From: a virus
DNA length: 11,049 bases
UHGV virus genome: UHGV-0229204
Strand: one strand, 5' to 3'
The translations under genes were made by a program, and so were the position numbers. This document shows positions 3,098 through 10,160 of the stretch, piece by piece. How positions within the stretch are numbered: position 1 is the first letter of the stretch; each line of letters begins with the position of its first letter. The notes beneath the pieces were generated by a model. That model had not been told where the DNA came from, searched no databases, and saw nothing but the letters and a program-made list of their open reading frames with translations.

Positions 3098-3685
3098 TTA
3101 TTGCTGATCTTCTGCATAAATCCCGGCTGAGATAATCGCACCGCCTATTTCCCTCTGTCCGTAAAGCAAAGGAACGGGGTTACCGGATGCCGTAGTATTG
3201 ACGGGTCCGCCAAACGCATAGGAAGGCTTATTATCTGGGTCCTGTCGCATCCTCAGACCAGCAACCTGAGGGGAAAGCATTTGCACTACACCACCCACAG
3301 CCATAGAACCAGCTGCGGCATATAGCGCCATTTGTGTACCTGCTGCCCATCCTATTGGGTTCCACCAGGTAAAAGCCGCAATTGCGGCGGCAGTAACAAT
3401 TTGAAAGAGGCCAGCCCTTTTACTGCCGCGTATTACAGGGATAATGCGAAGTTCATCGCCAGGTCCAAGAAGATCAAACTCTTCCTTTCCTATGTTTATT
3501 TGGTTTCGGAAGATGACAAAATCCAGCCCTTTCGCTCTGGTCTCGCGCAGGTAAGCATCAAAGCCATCAATGGTGTTAGAAAGCGCCCTGAACACTTCGC
3601 TGGCAGACGTTAGTGCGCGGCGATGCGTCCTGCCAAATCGCTGAGCCATTGAGCCGCTGAGTTTGATAACGGTTTTTCTTTCCAT
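3098..3685 (-). CDS. I: Tail assembly protein, lambda gpI-like
   Basis: 195-aa ORF with ATG at 3685 overlapping the K stop by 1 nt (ATGTAATGG). Contains ..QRFGR.. and a hydrophobic Gly/Ala-rich C-terminal half (..GLFQIVTAAAIAAF..GSMAVGGVVQMLSPQ..PVPLLYGQREIGG..) matching lambda gpI (..GGVFQIVLGAAAIAGS..VLGGVAQMLAPK..VLPVLYGEMRVGS..) from memory. Gene order K-I-J. Confidence 0.88.
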   Translation of the reverse strand: MERKTVIKLSGSMAQRFGRTHRRALTSASEVFRALSNTIDGFDAYLRETRAKGLDFVIFRNQINIGKEEFDLLGPGDELRIIPVIRGSKRAGLFQIVTAAAIAAFTWWNPIGWAAGTQMALYAAAGSMAVGGVVQMLSPQVAGLRMRQDPDNKPSYAFGGPVNTTASGNPVPLLYGQREIGGAIISAGIYAEDQQ

Positions 3686-5493: not shown

Positions 5494-8400
5494 TTAAACT
5501 CCCTTGATTAATCGCCACAGAGGCGAGCCCGGCATGCTGGCCTGTTCGTTAATGACGCCAGTGATGGCATCCTTAAGCTGCCTGCCTGCTGCTCCAGCAG
5601 TACCCTGACTGGCCGCCTGGGATGATCCGCCCTGAATATTGATATCGCCGAAGTTAACTGAAGGCATACCACCGGAGACCTGAGGAGTGCCAACAGCCCG
5701 AACGCCAAGCGAACCATCAGCGGCGCGCGTAAGCGGCATAATGGCTTCCGGACCAGCTTCGGCAAAAACCCCTGCACCTTTGGCAAAAGCAAACAGCTGA
5801 GGCGTCTGAAAAACGCCATTGCTGTAAGCGCTCAGGGACGGAGAGTCGTAAACATTACCCTTCGCATTAAAGGTAAAGTTCGCGCCAGCATTCTGAATAG
5901 CGGTACCGCTGCTGGCGGTAGCGGCTGACGAGGCACCAAAACTGAACAGTGAACCAATTGAGCTAACGCCATTAGCAACAGCCATATTCACCAGAACGTT
6001 CTGGATAATCTTCAGTACGCTGACGCCCCAGTCCTTCCAGCTATCAACGTTGCCATTGAGCATGTCGGTGATCGTGGTGACCGCGCCACCCATAGCCTGC
6101 TTCATGCCGTCAGCGGCCATGGAAGAATAATCAGTAGCTTCGTCCACCCAGTTCGCATAACCCTCAGACAGTCCCGTCATCCAGTCGTCACGCTGCGCAT
6201 CAGAAGCTGCGTAATATCCCTCCTGGTCGCGCAGGCGCTCATCGAGATAGCGCTTATTAAGTGCCAGTCCCTGCTGATAGAACGTCTCATCGATTTCACC
6301 AGCCTGACGCTGGCGGAGAAGATCGGTATTCTTCTGCTCGAACTCCTTACGCAGATTGAACTGCTCCTGAAGTCTTTCACGGAACCTGGTACCCTGCCCG
6401 TAACCCAGCAGTTGCCCTTCATTAGCTGCTCGGGCGCTGGCGTTACTGTCGGCGAGGTTGGCTTCGTAATTTCGCAGTTGCTCACGTAATTTAACCTGGT
6501 CAATCAGCGCAGCATTCTGCAATAACGTCTTTTTCTGGGCTTCTGTCAGAGAAGCAAGCTCGCCCTGGCTGACCTGGTATTTAACCTTCGCCAGTTCAGT
6601 ATTCTGGCCTTGCAGGGCAATCTGCTCTTTTTGCTGTTTGATCAGCTTGTCATAGGCATCAGCTGTTTTTTCCGCCTCGGATTTCCCGCCCTTATGGCGG
6701 CTTGAGTCACGAATAGCTTGCAACTGCCTGGCTGACTCAACTTCCATGCTGACATACTTCTCACGCCAACCAGCAGGGAGATTAAGGTCAGATGCATCGA
6801 ATTCCGCCTGCTTGCGGGTTTTGTCCAATCCCTTAAGACCGGACAACTCAAGCTGTCGCTGCGCCTTGTCTATAGCTTGCTGCTGCTTATTATCAAGTGC
6901 AGGAAGTACAGGCCCTGCATATTTTGGTGGGGACACTGCTGTAGACTGTCTGGAAACCTTGTTCAGACGGTCATACATCTCTGTAAGAGAACTTACGGCG
7001 CCAGCCATTTCTACTGTTTTATTTATAGCCTGATCAGTTATGTCGTTTATTAACTGTTGTGTTTGCTTTCTTTTATTGAGCATTTGCTCAAGTCGGCCTT
7101 CTTCAACCGCAAGTTCTGAAGCAAACTCTGCTGATTTCTCAACCGCATCGTTATACAGCCATGTTCCATCTGAAGCAGAATTGGCTGCTAATTTTGCGTT
7201 ATAAAGTTGATTGGATAATTCAGCAACTTTCTGCTTCTGCTGTTCAATCGCACTATTTTGAGCATCCAGTGAAATATTCGCCTGTCCAAGGTTGGCGGAT
7301 ATCTGCGTCTGAGACATTGATTTCAGATTATCTCGTACCTGCTCGATTGTGTCCGCATATTGGATTGCAGATTCCCTGGCTTGTTCTTGGCGTTGATACA
7401 TCGTGTACCACGCCCCAGCACCCAACATTAAAATTCCTGGCAAACCACCAACTAACGACAAAAGCCCCGTAGCGCCAGACTTGAATAAATTCATTACCGA
7501 TGTTGATCGGTTGAGTGCTTCTTGCGACGCTGATACTGCTTTATTTGACTGAACGAGAGTGGAATTGGCGGCTATCATTTCACGCCGTTTGGCAATAGAA
7601 TTTTGTGTAGCTGTCGCTTCTGCATTTGTGTTTTTTGCAAGTTCCAACTCGGATAGCGAGAGCTGATAAGCACGCTCGGCAGCAATCGCATCTGCTGCCG
7701 CCTTTCGTTGTGATTGGGTAGCAGATTCAGCCCTTGCAGATGCGAGCGCAATTTCGTTCTTTCTGGCATCTATTAATTGCGCCGTTTGGTTCCCAAGATC
7801 GCCAAACATCCCTCCAAGATAGCGAGCTCCACCTATTGCAGCCAAAGCTCCGGCAGCCGTAGCCACAGTGTCGATATTGTCAGAAACTGTATTCAATACA
7901 GCAACAAGAGCACTTGTCGCACCAGTAGCTTCATTAGCTCCACCTACCCATGCCATGAAAGCATTTTCGACTTTCGTCGTGGCAGCAGAAACGGTCTGCG
8001 GCATTGCCTCAAATTCACCACGCATAGTGCCAAGTTGACTTATCAGGGCCGGGACAACTTTATCTGCGGTTAGCATCCCCTGATCGGCCATTGCCTTCAG
8101 ATCTTTACGAGCTACACCCATCCCAGCGGCCAGCGCACGGATAACTCGATCACCGTTTTCGTTAACAGAGTTGAATTCCTCGCCCCGCAGAACGCCCTGA
8201 GCTAATGCCTGACTAAACTGGGTGATAACAGAACTTGCCTCTGCCGTGCTGGCGCCGGATAGCTTTAGTCCAGTAGAAATGGCCTCGGTTACATCCAGAA
8301 CTTGCTGCGAACTGTATCCGTATTCACGCATTGATGCGGCGGAACGCGCAAAAAGACTCGCATTATCAGAGAAGGCGGTTCCGGTTCGTTGGCTAATATC

Positions 8401-8760
8401 CATCAGCGCCCGCTGAGACTCCGTGAAATCATCAGACGATTGGGAAGCCTGCTTTAGCCTGGCATTAACAGAGCTCCATTCATCGGCCAGCGATATAAGA
8501 TGACCAGTCGCAAATGCTCCAGCAAATGCACCTGCCATTCCCAGCGCTGAGGCCTTCGCGGTGTTTATTTGACTAGTTACCTCAGCTAAGGCACGCTGAG
8601 TTTCACGCGAAGCTGCGGCCGCTTGGCGTCCTCCAGTCTGCATTACCCGGTAATAGTCATTCCCCATTCTTGAAGCACGAGAAATTTCAGACTGAAATGA
8701 CTGAGAGTTTGCAGATATTTTGATGATCAGTTCGCGCAACGTAGCCATATTTTCACCCAT
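5494..8760 (-). CDS. H: Tail tape measure protein, lambda gpH-like (1088 aa from ATG 8760; 1084 aa if the ATG at 8748 is used)
   Basis: Longest ORF in the window. Ala/Gln-rich, coiled-coil-like N-terminal and central regions, and a C-terminal segment (..NWVDEATDYSSMAADGMKQAMGG..VLKIIQNVLVNMAVANGVSSIGS..GTAIQNAGANFTFNAKG..) that matches the lambda gpH C-terminus (..SEWEESATDSMSQVK..VLSMMTEILLKQAMVGIVGSIGS..GTAIQAAAAKFHFATGG..) from memory. Positioned between G-T and M. A T8 run directly abuts the first ATG, so the second ATG (MATLRELI.., preceded by GGTGA) may be the real start. Confidence 0.92.
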   Translation of the reverse strand: MGENMATLRELIIKISANSQSFQSEISRASRMGNDYYRVMQTGGRQAAAASRETQRALAEVTSQINTAKASALGMAGAFAGAFATGHLISLADEWSSVNARLKQASQSSDDFTESQRALMDISQRTGTAFSDNASLFARSAASMREYGYSSQQVLDVTEAISTGLKLSGASTAEASSVITQFSQALAQGVLRGEEFNSVNENGDRVIRALAAGMGVARKDLKAMADQGMLTADKVVPALISQLGTMRGEFEAMPQTVSAATTKVENAFMAWVGGANEATGATSALVAVLNTVSDNIDTVATAAGALAAIGGARYLGGMFGDLGNQTAQLIDARKNEIALASARAESATQSQRKAAADAIAAERAYQLSLSELELAKNTNAEATATQNSIAKRREMIAANSTLVQSNKAVSASQEALNRSTSVMNLFKSGATGLLSLVGGLPGILMLGAGAWYTMYQRQEQARESAIQYADTIEQVRDNLKSMSQTQISANLGQANISLDAQNSAIEQQKQKVAELSNQLYNAKLAANSASDGTWLYNDAVEKSAEFASELAVEEGRLEQMLNKRKQTQQLINDITDQAINKTVEMAGAVSSLTEMYDRLNKVSRQSTAVSPPKYAGPVLPALDNKQQQAIDKAQRQLELSGLKGLDKTRKQAEFDASDLNLPAGWREKYVSMEVESARQLQAIRDSSRHKGGKSEAEKTADAYDKLIKQQKEQIALQGQNTELAKVKYQVSQGELASLTEAQKKTLLQNAALIDQVKLREQLRNYEANLADSNASARAANEGQLLGYGQGTRFRERLQEQFNLRKEFEQKNTDLLRQRQAGEIDETFYQQGLALNKRYLDERLRDQEGYYAASDAQRDDWMTGLSEGYANWVDEATDYSSMAADGMKQAMGGAVTTITDMLNGNVDSWKDWGVSVLKIIQNVLVNMAVANGVSSIGSLFSFGASSAATASSGTAIQNAGANFTFNAKGNVYDSPSLSAYSNGVFQTPQLFAFAKGAGVFAEAGPEAIMPLTRAADGSLGVRAVGTPQVSGGMPSVNFGDINIQGGSSQAASQGTAGAAGRQLKDAITGVINEQASMPGSPLWRLIKGV

Positions 8761-8785
8761 AAAAAAAACCCGCTTGATAGCGGGT
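8761..8785 (-). terminator. Intrinsic-terminator-like hairpin: 7-bp stem ACCCGCT/AGCGGGT, 4-nt loop, then T8 on the minus strand, immediately 3' of the moron ORF and abutting the tape measure ATG
   Basis: Seen directly: plus strand 8761-8785 aaaaaaaa cccgct tgat agcgggt; the minus strand reads ACCCGCTATCAAGCGGGTTTTTTTT followed by ATGGGTGAAAATATGGCT. Confidence 0.6.
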
Positions 8786-8791
8786 CGTGAG

Positions 8792-8980
8792 TTATAAACT
8801 GTCTTTTCTTTTGTGAGCGACTTGTATTAATAAATCTATTTGCGCATCTTGTTTTTTATTTATCTCTTTAAGGGCTTCAACTTGTTCATTTGCCCTTGTG
8901 CTAAACCGTATTAAATAAAAAATCACAATTAGATTTATCAACCAGCCGAATATTCCAAACACTACTACCAGTGGTTCCAT
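8792..8980 (-). CDS. Small single-pass membrane protein (62 aa) encoded by an AT-rich moron between T and H; candidate YebO-like / HK97 gp15-like superinfection-exclusion protein
   Basis: ATG at 8980 preceded by a strong AAGGAGG (4-nt spacer). Product MEPLVVVFGIFGWLINLIVIFYLIRFSTRANEQVEALKEINKKQDAQIDLLIQVAHKRKDSL has an N-terminal hydrophobic helix and a charged helical tail. Local GC is about 30% against about 52-55% in flanking tail genes. Followed by the hairpin + T8. The track ORF 8792..9037 begins at an upstream alternative start with no RBS. Confidence 0.65.
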   Translation of the reverse strand: MEPLVVVFGIFGWLINLIVIFYLIRFSTRANEQVEALKEINKKQDAQIDLLIQVAHKRKDSL

Positions 8981-9004
8981 AACGCCTCCTTTTCTTAAGG
9001 AAAG

Positions 9005-9033
9005 AGCGTATCGCCACATTGATGACATGTGAA
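9005..9033 (-). promoter_or_regulatory. Candidate sigma70-type promoter for the moron: TTCACA, 17-nt spacer, TACGCT on the minus strand
   Basis: Minus-strand sequence TTCACA-TGTCATCAATGTGGCGA-TACGCT lies in the 57-nt T-moron intergenic gap, about 25 nt upstream of the moron RBS. The -10 is a weak match (3/6 to TATAAT). Pattern-based only. Confidence 0.25.
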
Positions 9034-9037
9034 GCAA

Positions 9038-9708
9038 TTATTGTGTCGCAGCTGTAAGAGCAGCCTCAAGCCCTGCAAACGGGTCCTTCGGTGCTGATTG
9101 CTCATCACCACCCCAGCGCAGGATCGCATCGTCCAGCGGTACTTTTGCCCCCTGCGAGCCGTAGATGGCAGAGACGAGCTGGGCTGCCTGAATGTCACCA
9201 CGGATATCGCCAACCGGACTTTGCCTGTCGTACTCAATCCACATCAGAAGCTCGCTTGCCGTCATATTCTGCCGAAGCTCTGAGAGCGTGCGCCCCATCC
9301 GGAGCGCAAGCGACATCAGAAACTTTACGCCGGGGGTTGAGACTTTTCCCGCGCTTCGTCCGCATTGTTGATCAGGTCAAGCGCCTGTTTGAGCAGGCGT
9401 GAATGGACGGGGCCGTAGATTTCACGCACCTGCTCTTCTTCGTCTACGCTGAATACCGGCTGCTTATCGGTGTCACACAGAACGTCAATGAAGAGCACCA
9501 CGTCAGCGCAAAGATTACGGTGTGCCTTTTCCGATACCGACACATTTTCATCATCAGTACCCGCTTTCACCACCTCCTGCCAGCGCAGCCAGGCTTCACC
9601 TGACGGCTCACGCAGAACCACTTTGACGCCCTCCCACTCAGGAACGGCGACCGTCTTATGACGAAATCCCGACATCTTAGCCAGGGCGAGATTTTTAATA
9701 TTCTTCAT
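9038..9708 (-). CDS. T: Tail assembly chaperone G-T fusion, made by a programmed -1 ribosomal frameshift near the end of G; the T segment is ORF 9038..9351 in the -1 frame
   Basis: The downstream ORF (..MSLALRMGRTLSELRQNMTASELLMWIEYDRQSP..) is in the -1 frame relative to G, overlaps the G 3' end, and has no RBS before its internal ATG at 9316. The -1 frame is open from a TGA at 9379-9377 through the G stop. A GGGAAAAG slippery-like run sits at 9343-9350. This matches the conserved G/GT arrangement upstream of tape measure genes. Confidence 0.75.
9325..9708 (-). CDS. G: Tail assembly chaperone, lambda gpG-like (127 aa)
   Basis: ATG at 9708 with GAGAGG 6 nt upstream. Acidic small protein (..VDEEEQVREIYGPVHSRLLKQALDLINNADEAREKSQPPA) located between the major tail gene and the T frame, with the slippery site near its 3' end. 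Confidence 0.8.
   Translation of the reverse strand: MKNIKNLALAKMSGFRHKTVAVPEWEGVKVVLREPSGEAWLRWQEVVKAGTDDENVSVSEKAHRNLCADVVLFIDVLCDTDKQPVFSVDEEEQVREIYGPVHSRLLKQALDLINNADEAREKSQPPA
9343..9351 (-). promoter_or_regulatory. Putative -1 programmed frameshift slippery site, minus strand C GGG AAA AG (zero-frame codons CGG GAA AAG)
   Basis: Seen directly at the G 3' end. Resembles the lambda G GGA AAG site but is offset by one nucleotide and has an extra A. An A-site tRNA-Lys slip from AAG to AAA is possible. Confidence 0.5.
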
Positions 9709-9716
9709 GCGACCTC

Positions 9717-10160
9717 TCAGGAGCCAGACTCGATGTTTTCAGGCTTACCTTTCAGGCGCAGGGAGAACGTTGCCGCAACTACGCCGTTGGTACCGGAAGA
9801 CCAGGTGTGCTGGCGGATTTCAGCCAGGAACTTAAAGCCCTTGCCGGACGGGAAGATAACCTGGAAAGCGTAGGTCGTATCGTTGTCATACGCTTCACGC
9901 AAGGCGTCCTGCGCCGGGTTTTTGTAGAAGTTGCCGGACAGAGAGATTTCTGACGGAGAAGGCAGGCCGTTGATGTTCTCCTGCTCGGTAGAGCAAAGCG
10001 TGGTTACGTCGATATCCTGCTTCTGGCCACCAGTGAACTGAATTTCTTTGATGGTGCAACTCAGATCGAGGAAGGTTGCGGTATCCATCGTTTCTTTGGT
10101 GGCTGGCGCAGAGGAAATAAGGATCTTCGTCAGCTGCGATTTTTCATAAAGTGCAGACAT
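9717..10160 (-). CDS. Major tail tube protein (147 aa), homologous to the lambda gpV N-terminal tube domain, with no C-terminal Ig-like domain
   Basis: ATG at 10160 with AGGAGA 7 nt upstream. ..DNDTTYAFQVIFPSGKGFKFLAEI.. resembles lambda V ..[23 protein letters not shown]... Sits directly upstream of G, as V does in lambda. The stop TGA overlaps the G RBS. Confidence 0.8.
   Translation of the reverse strand: MSALYEKSQLTKILISSAPATKETMDTATFLDLSCTIKEIQFTGGQKQDIDVTTLCSTEQENINGLPSPSEISLSGNFYKNPAQDALREAYDNDTTYAFQVIFPSGKGFKFLAEIRQHTWSSGTNGVVAATFSLRLKGKPENIESGS

What the first reader, a model, noticed from the sequence alone, without database searches (positions are those of the whole stretch)
8761..9037. 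AT-rich moron between T and the tape measure gene encoding a YebO / HK97 gp15-like small membrane protein (candidate superinfection exclusion)
A 62-aa ORF with a near-perfect AAGGAGG RBS, a possible promoter of its own and a hairpin + T8 terminator is inserted between the G-T chaperone genes and the tape measure gene, where lambda has nothing. Its GC content is about 30% against about 52-55% for the neighbours, indicating separate acquisition. The product has one N-terminal transmembrane helix followed by ..RFSTRANEQVEALKEINKKQDAQIDLLIQV.., which resembles my recollection of E. coli YebO (..RASSRTNEQIELLEALLDQQKRQNALLRRL..). Phage HK97 carries a moron, gene 15, at this same T/H junction; it encodes a YebO-like inner-membrane protein that blocks DNA injection by related phages in a tape-measure-dependent manner (Cumby et al.). 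Together with the HK97 gp10-family gene upstream, this suggests an HK97-like prophage expressing an entry-exclusion factor from the lysogen.
Basis: partly seen in the sequence, partly recalled or inferred. Interest (0 to 1): 0.62.

Follow-up and report, generated by a model that had tools for sequence, protein, structure and literature searches.

The report
HK97 gene 15 exclusion moron copy

Summary
On the minus strand, window 8980..8792 encodes a 62-aa protein. It has an AAGGAGG ribosome-binding site and is followed by a hairpin plus T8 terminator. The CDS is 31.7% GC, against 50-58% in its neighbours. It lies between the tail chaperone gene T and the tape measure gene, which overlap in lambda.

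The protein passes the Pfam YebO gathering threshold (38.9 bits against 27). It is 59/62 identical to HK97 Gp15, which GenBank annotates as "moron product". The DNA across the whole junction is 96.8% identical to HK97, and the flanking genes are HK97-type. The tape measure protein is 90% identical to HK97's.

HK97 gp15 has been studied experimentally (Cumby et al.). It is expressed from the prophage and proposed to insert into the inner membrane. It blocks DNA entry by HK97 and HK75, and swapping in the HK022 tail region relieves the block.

This is therefore a known gene in a mosaic HK97-like tail module. The weak points are the promoter, which is only a poor consensus match, and the exclusion activity of this allele, which is inferred and not tested.

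In passing: closely related tail modules carry unrelated AT-rich envelope-protein genes in the same slot.

The parts
8792..8980 (-). Gene 15 orthologue: 62-aa YebO-family protein with an N-terminal transmembrane helix (about residues 4-24) and a charged helical tail
   Evidence: ORF and translation. Pfam PF13974 YebO at 38.9 bits against a cut-off of 27. PHROG 5031, E = 8e-29. 59/62 identical to HK97 Gp15. Hydropathy peak of 2.55.
8985..8991 (-). Shine-Dalgarno sequence AAGGAGG, 4 nt upstream of the ATG
   Evidence: Read directly from the sequence. Identical in HK97.
9005..9033 (-). Candidate moron promoter TTCACA-17 nt-TACGCT (weak, 8 of 12 consensus positions)
   Evidence: Not reported by the consensus scan. 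Both hexamers are identical in HK97 while 3 substitutions fall in the spacer. The exact pattern is present, at the same distance from the gene, in all 10 fetched loci that carry this allele or HK97's. The 77%-identical Klebsiella spallanzanii homologue has a scan-positive GTGACA-17-TAGGAT at the equivalent position. Expression of HK97 gene 15 from the prophage is reported in PMC3594210.
8761..8786 (-). Intrinsic terminator: 8-bp G+C-rich stem with a 4-nt loop, then T8, ending 12 nt before the tape measure start codon
   Evidence: 100% identical to the stretch annotated as 'terminator, putative' in the HK97 record.
9038..9316 (-). T part of the G-T tail assembly chaperone. It is in the -1 frame relative to G, and the overlap contains GGGAAAAG.
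   Evidence: Pfam Phage_tail_T, E = 7e-20. Frame relation worked out. HK97 gp14 is annotated as the product of a -1 frameshift.
9325..9708 (-). Tail assembly chaperone G (HK97 gp13 homologue)
   Evidence: Pfam Phage_TAC_1, E = 2.5e-59.
5494..8748 (-). Tape measure protein (HK97 gp16/H homologue), the likely target side of the exclusion. The start is taken as MATLRE at 8748, as annotated in HK97 and RefSeq; an upstream in-frame ATG lies at 8760.
   Evidence: Pfam TMP_3, Phage_HK97_TLTM and Tape_meas_lam_C. 90% identical to the HK97 TMP overall, near-identical up to residue ~1024 and unrelated over the last ~65 aa.

Best explanation
The interval is the gene 15 moron of an HK97-type (Hendrixvirinae) tail module: a self-contained, horizontally acquired, AT-rich cassette (weak promoter, strong RBS, 62-codon gene, intrinsic terminator) inserted between the G-T chaperone genes and the tape measure gene.

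By orthology with HK97 gp15, the proposed mechanism has three steps:
1. The gene is transcribed from its own promoter while the surrounding late tail operon is repressed in the lysogen.
2. The protein anchors in the inner membrane through its N-terminal helix. The arginines and lysines that follow the helix suggest the C-terminal helical tail faces the cytoplasm.
3. It prevents incoming HK97-type phages, including the prophage's own kind, from moving their DNA across the inner membrane after normal adsorption. It probably does this by interfering with the channel-forming step that depends on the incoming tail's tape measure protein (and, for HK97, PtsG).

During lytic growth the antiterminated late transcript would read through the terminator into the tape measure gene.

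Shown here: gene structure, family membership, orthology, position and composition. Taken from the literature on HK97: expression, and the exclusion phenotype. Inferred: that this allele behaves the same way, its topology, and its molecular target.
For: - **Orthology:** 59/62 aa identity to HK97 Gp15, with only M14L, L24I and Q57K differing. DNA is 96.8% identical over 600 nt spanning the T end, the moron and the TMP start, and the terminator and RBS are identical. HK97 annotates gene 15 as 'moron product', followed by a putative terminator, at the same position.
- **Family:** the Pfam YebO gathering score is passed, and PHROG 5031 matches at 8e-29.
- **Anatomy:** a single strongly hydrophobic N-terminal segment. 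The GC trough is confined to the cassette.
- **Position:** lambda T and H overlap, so the cassette is an insertion.
- **Flanks:** gp10-like, tail completion, tube, G, T and TMP genes are all HK97-type.
- **Conserved slot:** homologues of 49-77% identity in Klebsiella phages and prophages sit at the same T/TMP junction and are also AT-rich. All 8 contigs examined that carry the exact protein show the same slot.
- **Function of HK97 gp15:** expressed from the prophage, proposed to insert into the inner membrane, blocks HK97 and HK75 independently of immunity and of surface receptors, relieved by a tail-region swap with HK022 (PMC3594210; PMC10883804). A review states that it acts on the TMP-PtsG complex (PMC12939059).
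Against: - No promoter meets the consensus scan; the candidate matches 8 of 12 positions.
- Neither expression nor exclusion has been tested for this allele.
- This tape measure protein differs from HK97's in its last ~65 residues, and the distal tail genes are of another lineage. The set of phages excluded, and self-exclusion, could therefore differ.
- The molecular mechanism of gp15 is described as unknown by its discoverers.
- The two primary papers (J Bacteriol 2012; Mol Microbiol 2015) were not available to read. The functional statements rest on the authors' own commentary and on later papers that cite them.
- PADLOC and NCBIfam have no model for this protein.
Confidence: 0.9

Rival explanations
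1. The protein keeps the (unknown) cellular role of chromosomal YebO and benefits the host in a way unrelated to phage exclusion. It would be a lysogenic-conversion gene for envelope physiology, not a superinfection exclusion factor.
For: It is a member of the YebO family by the Pfam threshold. It shares the R-x-S-x-R-x-N-x-Q motif and the transmembrane segment with E. coli YebO.
Against: It is 95% identical to HK97 gp15 but only 31-38% identical to YebO, and the C-terminus diverges. The discoverers report that overexpressing or deleting E. coli yebO had no effect on HK97 propagation, whereas gp15 excludes (PMC3594210).
Confidence: 0.04
2. The cassette is a silent passenger in this particular element. 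It is intact but not expressed from the repressed prophage, because its promoter is too weak or depends on a factor absent in this host. It would then be made only as part of the late transcript and have no role in the lysogen.
For: The consensus scan finds no sigma-70 promoter. The -10 hexamer TACGCT matches only 3 of 6 positions.
Against: The same two hexamers occur in HK97, where expression from the prophage is reported. A better promoter-like site lies at the equivalent position in the Klebsiella spallanzanii homologue. The ORF, RBS and terminator are all intact, and the exact protein recurs in 585 blocks of the public collection.
Confidence: 0.05
3. The protein acts in the lytic cycle of its own phage, for example in tail assembly or in membrane events at lysis, because it lies inside the tail operon.
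For: Its position is between the chaperone genes and the tape measure gene.
Against: Closely related tail modules lack it or carry unrelated genes in the slot (LAU1, E. coli ARL09/232). Lambda has nothing there. It is therefore dispensable for tail formation. Its own terminator and foreign base composition mark it as an independent unit.
Confidence: 0.01

Closest known systems
HK97 gene 15 / Gp15 (AAF31105.1), the founding 'moron' and a superinfection exclusion protein (Juhala et al. 2000; Cumby et al. 2012)
   Same: Same length (62 aa) with 59/62 identical residues. Same slot between gp14 (T) and the tape measure gene. Same RBS, terminator and candidate promoter hexamers. Same low GC.
   Different: Three conservative substitutions (M14L, L24I, Q57K). 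The resident tape measure protein has a different C-terminal ~65 aa, and the M-L-K-I-J genes belong to the LAU1-like lineage, not HK97's. The major tail protein lacks the C-terminal domain of HK97 gp12.
E. coli YebO (b1825) and Pfam family PF13974
   Same: N-terminal transmembrane helix followed by the R-x-S-x-R-x-N-x-Q...L...Q..Q..LL motif. The Pfam gathering score is passed.
   Different: Only 31-38% identity. YebO is 95 aa with a longer acidic C-terminus and is chromosomal, next to mgrB. It is reported to have no effect on HK97.
YebO-like genes of Klebsiella prophages (e.g. phage ST147-VIM1phi7.2 QBP28426.1; K. spallanzanii SB6411 prophage)
   Same: Same T/TMP junction, AT-rich, same motif, 45-77% identity.
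   Different: More divergent, and untested experimentally. One copy has an IS21 element inserted just upstream.
Other membrane-associated injection blockers aimed at siphophage tails: Streptococcus phage TP-J34 Ltp, Lactococcus Sie2009, P22 SieA
   Same: They work in a similar way: a prophage-expressed envelope protein blocks DNA entry after adsorption. For Ltp, escape maps to the tape measure protein (PMC10883804).
   Different: No sequence relationship. Ltp is a lipoprotein, and SieA is a larger polytopic protein acting on a podovirus.

Membership tests
HK97 gp15 orthologue group (PHROG 5031) | High full-length sequence identity to HK97 Gp15 | tested here: met
   59/62 identical, E = 2e-44. 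tblastn finds 18 Escherichia phage records at 95-97%. PHROG 5031 matches at 8e-29 over residues 1-61.
HK97 gp15 orthologue group (PHROG 5031) | Located between the G-T chaperone genes and the tape measure gene of an HK97-type tail module | tested here: met
HK97 gp15 orthologue group (PHROG 5031) | Single N-terminal membrane-spanning helix | tested here: met
   Kyte-Doolittle 19-residue mean of 2.55 for residues 6-24 and no second hydrophobic segment. This is a hydropathy calculation only; no dedicated topology predictor was available.
HK97 gp15 orthologue group (PHROG 5031) | Expressed from the repressed prophage | not testable with these tools
   Only a weak promoter-like element, identical to that of HK97.
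HK97 gp15 orthologue group (PHROG 5031) | Blocks DNA entry of HK97 and HK75 after adsorption, and is relieved by swapping the tail tube/TMP region | not testable with these tools
   Known for HK97 gp15 from the literature. Inferred here from 95% identity.
YebO family (Pfam PF13974) | Score at or above the Pfam gathering threshold | tested here: met
   38.9 bits against 27; residues 14-58 align to profile positions 8-52 of 80.
YebO family (Pfam PF13974) | Direct similarity to E. coli K-12 YebO | tested here: met
   BLASTP gives 38% over 48 aa, E = 6e-7. Invariant R25, S27, R29, N31 and Q33 in the alignment.
Phage moron (sense of Juhala et al. 2000) | Inserted between two genes that are adjacent in related phages | tested here: met
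   Lambda T and H overlap by 8 nt. Here they are 277-291 nt apart.
Phage moron (sense of Juhala et al. 2000) | Base composition different from the flanking genes | tested here: met
   31.7% against 50.5-58.4% GC.
Phage moron (sense of Juhala et al. 2000) | Own terminator | tested here: met
Phage moron (sense of Juhala et al. 2000) | Own promoter | tested here: inconclusive
   No hit in the consensus scan. TTCACA-17-TACGCT is conserved with HK97. A scan-positive site lies at the equivalent position in K. spallanzanii.

The most novel reading that the evidence does not exclude
The T/tape-measure junction of this tail-module lineage may be a swappable slot for injection-blocking genes. In flanks more than 92% identical to this window, the slot holds one of three unrelated genes, all AT-rich and all predicted envelope proteins:
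- the YebO-like gp15 (this window and HK97);
- a 121-aa predicted lipoprotein (Enterobacter phage LAU1);
- a 111-aa protein with two hydrophobic helices and a zinc ribbon (E. coli ARL09/232 prophage).

If the other two are also prophage-expressed blockers of tape-measure-dependent DNA entry, the slot would be a small 'defence hotspot' sitting next to the gene for its own target. The two other proteins would be new exclusion factors. For the window itself, the only non-trivial reading is that its three substitutions and hybrid tape measure protein change which phages are excluded.
Probability: 0.25. Interest if true: 0.4.

Novelty: already known. Interest (0 to 1): 0.1.

Why it matters
It matters little as a discovery. 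This is the textbook moron, with a published exclusion phenotype, found in another mosaic HK97-like element. It does have three minor uses:
- RefSeq calls the identical protein only 'YebO family protein', and several phage records call it 'hypothetical protein'. It could be named more informatively.
- This allele is paired with a hybrid tape measure protein, so it is a natural variant for asking which part of the tape measure protein gp15 acts on.
- The alternative cassettes in the same slot are cheap candidates for new exclusion proteins.

Tried and rejected
- **Promoter scan:** the sigma-70 consensus scan of 8600-9400 found nothing. The promoter claim rests only on a weak match and its positional conservation.
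- **RNA families:** an Rfam scan of the whole window at gathering thresholds gave no RNA family, so a hidden RNA element is not the explanation for the AT-rich stretch.
- **Opposite strand:** it has only 24-25-aa ORFs in the interval. Rejected as coding.
- **Longer ORF:** the mechanical 81-aa ORF from TTG at 9037 was rejected in favour of the ATG at 8980. That start has the RBS, and the HK97 and RefSeq annotations and homologue N-termini agree with it.
- **Other libraries:** PADLOC gave no hit, and NCBIfam gave only a sub-threshold chance hit.
- **Frameshift site:** the lambda-type slippery heptamer GGGAAAG is absent from the G/T overlap. The only match is unrelated, on the + strand at 3271. 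The overlap has GGGAAAAG instead.
- **Species-representative genomes:** the scan returned a single locus, in Klebsiella spallanzanii. It was uninformative on prevalence. The exact-sequence look-up (585 blocks) and the E. coli survey (6 of 5,426 complete genomes) served better.
- **Papers not held:** Cumby et al. 2012 (J Bacteriol) and 2015 (Mol Microbiol) could not be read.
- **Deliberately not run:** structure prediction and the large protein-database searches, because 95% identity to a characterised protein already settles identity.

Full report
**What is in the sequence**

The feature lies on the minus strand. A 62-codon ORF runs from the ATG at 8980 to the TAA at 8794-8792. It encodes MEPLVVVFGIFGWLINLIVIFYLIRFSTRANEQVEALKEINKKQDAQIDLLIQVAHKRKDSL.

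- AAGGAGG lies at 8991-8985, 4 nt before the start codon.
- Five bases after the stop codon comes an 8-bp G+C-rich stem with a 4-nt loop, which runs into a T8 tract at 8768-8761. The terminator scan reports it. It folds at -13.9 kcal/mol, z = -3.2 against dinucleotide shuffles.
- The CDS is 31.7% GC (GC3 27%). The tape measure gene is 50.5%, T is 58.4% and G is 53.9%. Every 189-nt window at or below 36% GC starts between 8673 and 8856, so this is the only such trough in the 11 kb.
- A 19-residue Kyte-Doolittle window peaks at 2.55 over residues 6-24, and there is no second hydrophobic segment.
- The opposite strand has only 24-25-aa ORFs, and Rfam finds nothing in the window.

The proposed promoter at 9033..9005 (TTCACA-17-TACGCT) matches 8 of 12 consensus positions, and the sigma-70 scan does not report it.

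**Context**

The whole window is one minus-strand tail module. Reading in the direction of transcription:

| Gene | Window coordinates |
|---|---|
| HK97-gp10-like | 11034-10564 |
| Tail completion protein | 10567-10220 |
| Tail tube protein | 10160-9717 |
| Chaperone G | 9708-9325 |
| Chaperone T | 9316-9038 |
| The small gene | 8980-8792 |
| Tape measure protein (carries the Phage_HK97_TLTM domain) | 8748-5494 |
| M | 5518-5153 |
| L | 5240-4398 |
| K | 4395-3685 |
| I | 3685-3098 |
| J-type tip protein (runs off the window) | from 3044 |

T is in the -1 frame relative to G, matching the HK97 annotation of gp14 as a -1 frameshift product. In lambda, T and H overlap by 8 nt, so the 277-nt interval is an insertion relative to lambda.

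**Identity**

- The protein passes the Pfam YebO (PF13974) gathering score: 38.9 bits against 27.
- It matches PHROG 5031 end to end, E = 8e-29.
- tblastn against phage records finds 18 Escherichia phage records at 95-97% identity: HK97, HK75, HK106, HK446, HK544, HK633, mEp234 and mEpX1. Some of these annotate the gene as 'Gp15'.
- Against HK97 Gp15 (AAF31105.1, note 'moron product') it is 59/62 identical, with M14L, L24I and Q57K the only differences.
- At the DNA level, 600 nt spanning the T end, the cassette and the tape measure start are 96.8% identical to HK97. The RBS and terminator are identical.
- E. coli K-12 YebO aligns at 38% over 48 residues, E = 6e-7.
- A five-sequence alignment shows the shared core: the transmembrane helix, then R-x-S-x-R-x-N-x-Q ... 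L ... Q..Q..LL. The C-termini diverge.

**The promoter question**

Both candidate hexamers are identical in HK97, while three of the substitutions between the two sequences fall in the spacer. The exact pattern occurs at the same distance from the gene in all ten fetched loci that carry this allele or HK97's. The 77%-identical homologue in a Klebsiella spallanzanii prophage has a scan-positive GTGACA-17-TAGGAT at the equivalent position, 26-54 nt upstream of the start. That fits a real promoter at this place but does not prove one. Direct evidence comes only from the literature on HK97.

**What is known about the gene**

The authors' commentary (Cumby, Davidson and Maxwell 2012, PMC3594210) makes these statements:
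- Gene 15 of HK97 was the first element to be called a moron, and it lies between the tail assembly chaperone and tape measure genes.
[quoted passage not shown] - Its homologues are YebO proteins of Enterobacteriaceae that diverge at the C-terminus.
- Overexpressing or deleting E. coli yebO does not affect HK97.
- The precise mechanism is unknown.

Later papers add to this. [quoted passage not shown] HK97 DNA entry needs LamB, FkpA and PtsG, and the tape measure protein interacts with PtsG (bioRxiv 10.1101/2025.12.01.691526). [quoted passage not shown] I could not read the two primary papers.

**Most likely mechanism for this copy**

At 95% identity, with identical expression signals, the gene is expected to behave as HK97 gene 15 does. 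It would be made in the lysogen and anchored in the inner membrane by residues ~4-24. It would block the step, after adsorption, in which the incoming tail opens a path for DNA through the inner membrane.

- R25, R29 and the lysines after the helix, against a single glutamate before it, suggest the C-terminal helix is cytoplasmic (inference).
- The resident tape measure protein is near-identical to HK97's up to residue ~1024, so HK97-type phages, including the prophage's own kind, are the expected targets.
- Beyond that point (about window 5686-5689) similarity to HK97 ends. The remaining tail genes resemble those of Enterobacter phage LAU1.
- If the C-terminal part of the tape measure protein contributes to sensitivity, specificity could differ. 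This was not testable here.

**Distribution and origin**

- The cassette is rare in E. coli: 6 of 5,426 complete genomes, all chromosomal, annotated 'YebO family protein'.
- The best whole-window match there is a prophage of strain EC2001 next to yecD/aspS, at 95.6% over 93% of the window. The window does not come from that strain.
- The exact protein occurs in 585 blocks of the public assembly collection. All eight contigs inspected have it in the same slot, and the contigs include chromosomes of 4.7-5.0 Mb.
- One of these, GCA_030334295.1 contig JAOWEE010000053.1, is 99.92% identical to the window over the 6.3 kb available.
- Homologues of 49-77% identity in Klebsiella phages and prophages occupy the same junction and are equally AT-rich.

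**Verdict**

The feature is already known: it is an allele of the founding phage moron, whose exclusion function is published. Interest is low. What remains unshown for this copy is expression and activity.

**Side observation**

Relatives with near-identical flanks carry unrelated AT-rich envelope-protein genes in the same slot:
- a predicted lipoprotein in phage LAU1;
- a protein with two hydrophobic helices and a zinc ribbon in E. coli ARL09/232.

These two would be inexpensive candidates for new exclusion factors.

Noticed in passing
L003:2711-3075 (Enterobacter phage LAU1, MN688132; same T/TMP junction as window 8761-9037): LAU1 has no gene 15. In the same slot it carries a different AT-rich ORF that, read from the ATG at 2711, encodes a 121-aa predicted lipoprotein (MVKILILIIFLIAGC..., with a lipobox). 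The record annotates only a 56-aa ORF from an internal TTG. The protein matches PHROG 27124 (3.6e-18) and PHROG 914, both of unknown function. It has no Pfam or PADLOC hit.
   Followed up: partly
L008:2068-2403 (E. coli ARL09/232 prophage, WP_016240210.1): A third unrelated occupant of the same slot: a 111-aa 'zinc ribbon domain-containing protein' with two N-terminal hydrophobic helices and CPFC...CKHC. GC is 37-41% against 58-59% in the flanks. Together with gp15 and the LAU1 lipoprotein, this marks the junction as a hot spot for small envelope-protein cassettes.
   Followed up: partly
window 9717-10160 (-): The major tail (tube) protein is 147 aa. It is 92% identical to residues 1-145 of HK97 gp12 (234 aa) but lacks the C-terminal ~89 residues. 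In a longer 234-aa relative (L010), Pfam gives a weak Ig_3 hit. The same short form (97% identical) occurs in phage LAU1. RefSeq flags it as a pseudogene missing its C-terminus in EC2001 and ARL09/232, but it is more likely a natural short variant.
   Followed up: partly
window about 5686-5689 (-), inside the 3' end of the tape measure gene: There is a mosaic junction here. Similarity to HK97-group phages stops at this point: the protein alignment breaks down after TMP residue ~1024. The last ~65 residues and the downstream M-L-K-I-J genes follow the LAU1 / AsXd-1 lineage (about 94% identity).
   Followed up: partly
window 9343-9350 (-), G/T overlap: The G-to-T -1 frameshift region contains GGGAAAAG, read as CGG GAA AAG in the G frame. 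It is not the lambda heptamer G GGA AAG, so the slip would have to occur on A AAG or in a non-canonical register.
   Followed up: no
window 8746-8760 (-): The tape measure ORF has two in-frame ATGs: 8760 (MGENMATL...) and 8748 (MATL...). HK97 and RefSeq use the second. The first begins immediately after the terminator's T8 run (8768-8761), so the terminator directly abuts the tape measure translation start region.
   Followed up: no
L005:598-2849 (Klebsiella phage ST147-VIM1phi7.2, MK448232): An IS21-family element (transposase plus AAA ATPase) is inserted between the T-like gene and the YebO-like gene, about 130 nt upstream of the latter. This could separate the moron from the late operon or alter its expression.
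   Followed up: no
L017:2163-2693 and L011:4232-6982: Other contigs carrying the exact gp15 allele show further mosaicism. One has a KilA-N domain gene inserted between the tail completion and tube genes (L017). Another has a shortened 916-aa tape measure protein with a Peptidase_S74 domain, followed by an IS transposase (L011).
   Followed up: no
Aeromonas phage AsXd-1 (MH178096), hits H60 and H63: A record labelled as an Aeromonas salmonicida phage is 94% identical to 71% of this enterobacterial tail module, and about as similar to it as Enterobacter phage LAU1 is. The host label may be wrong, or the sequence may be a contaminant.
   Followed up: no
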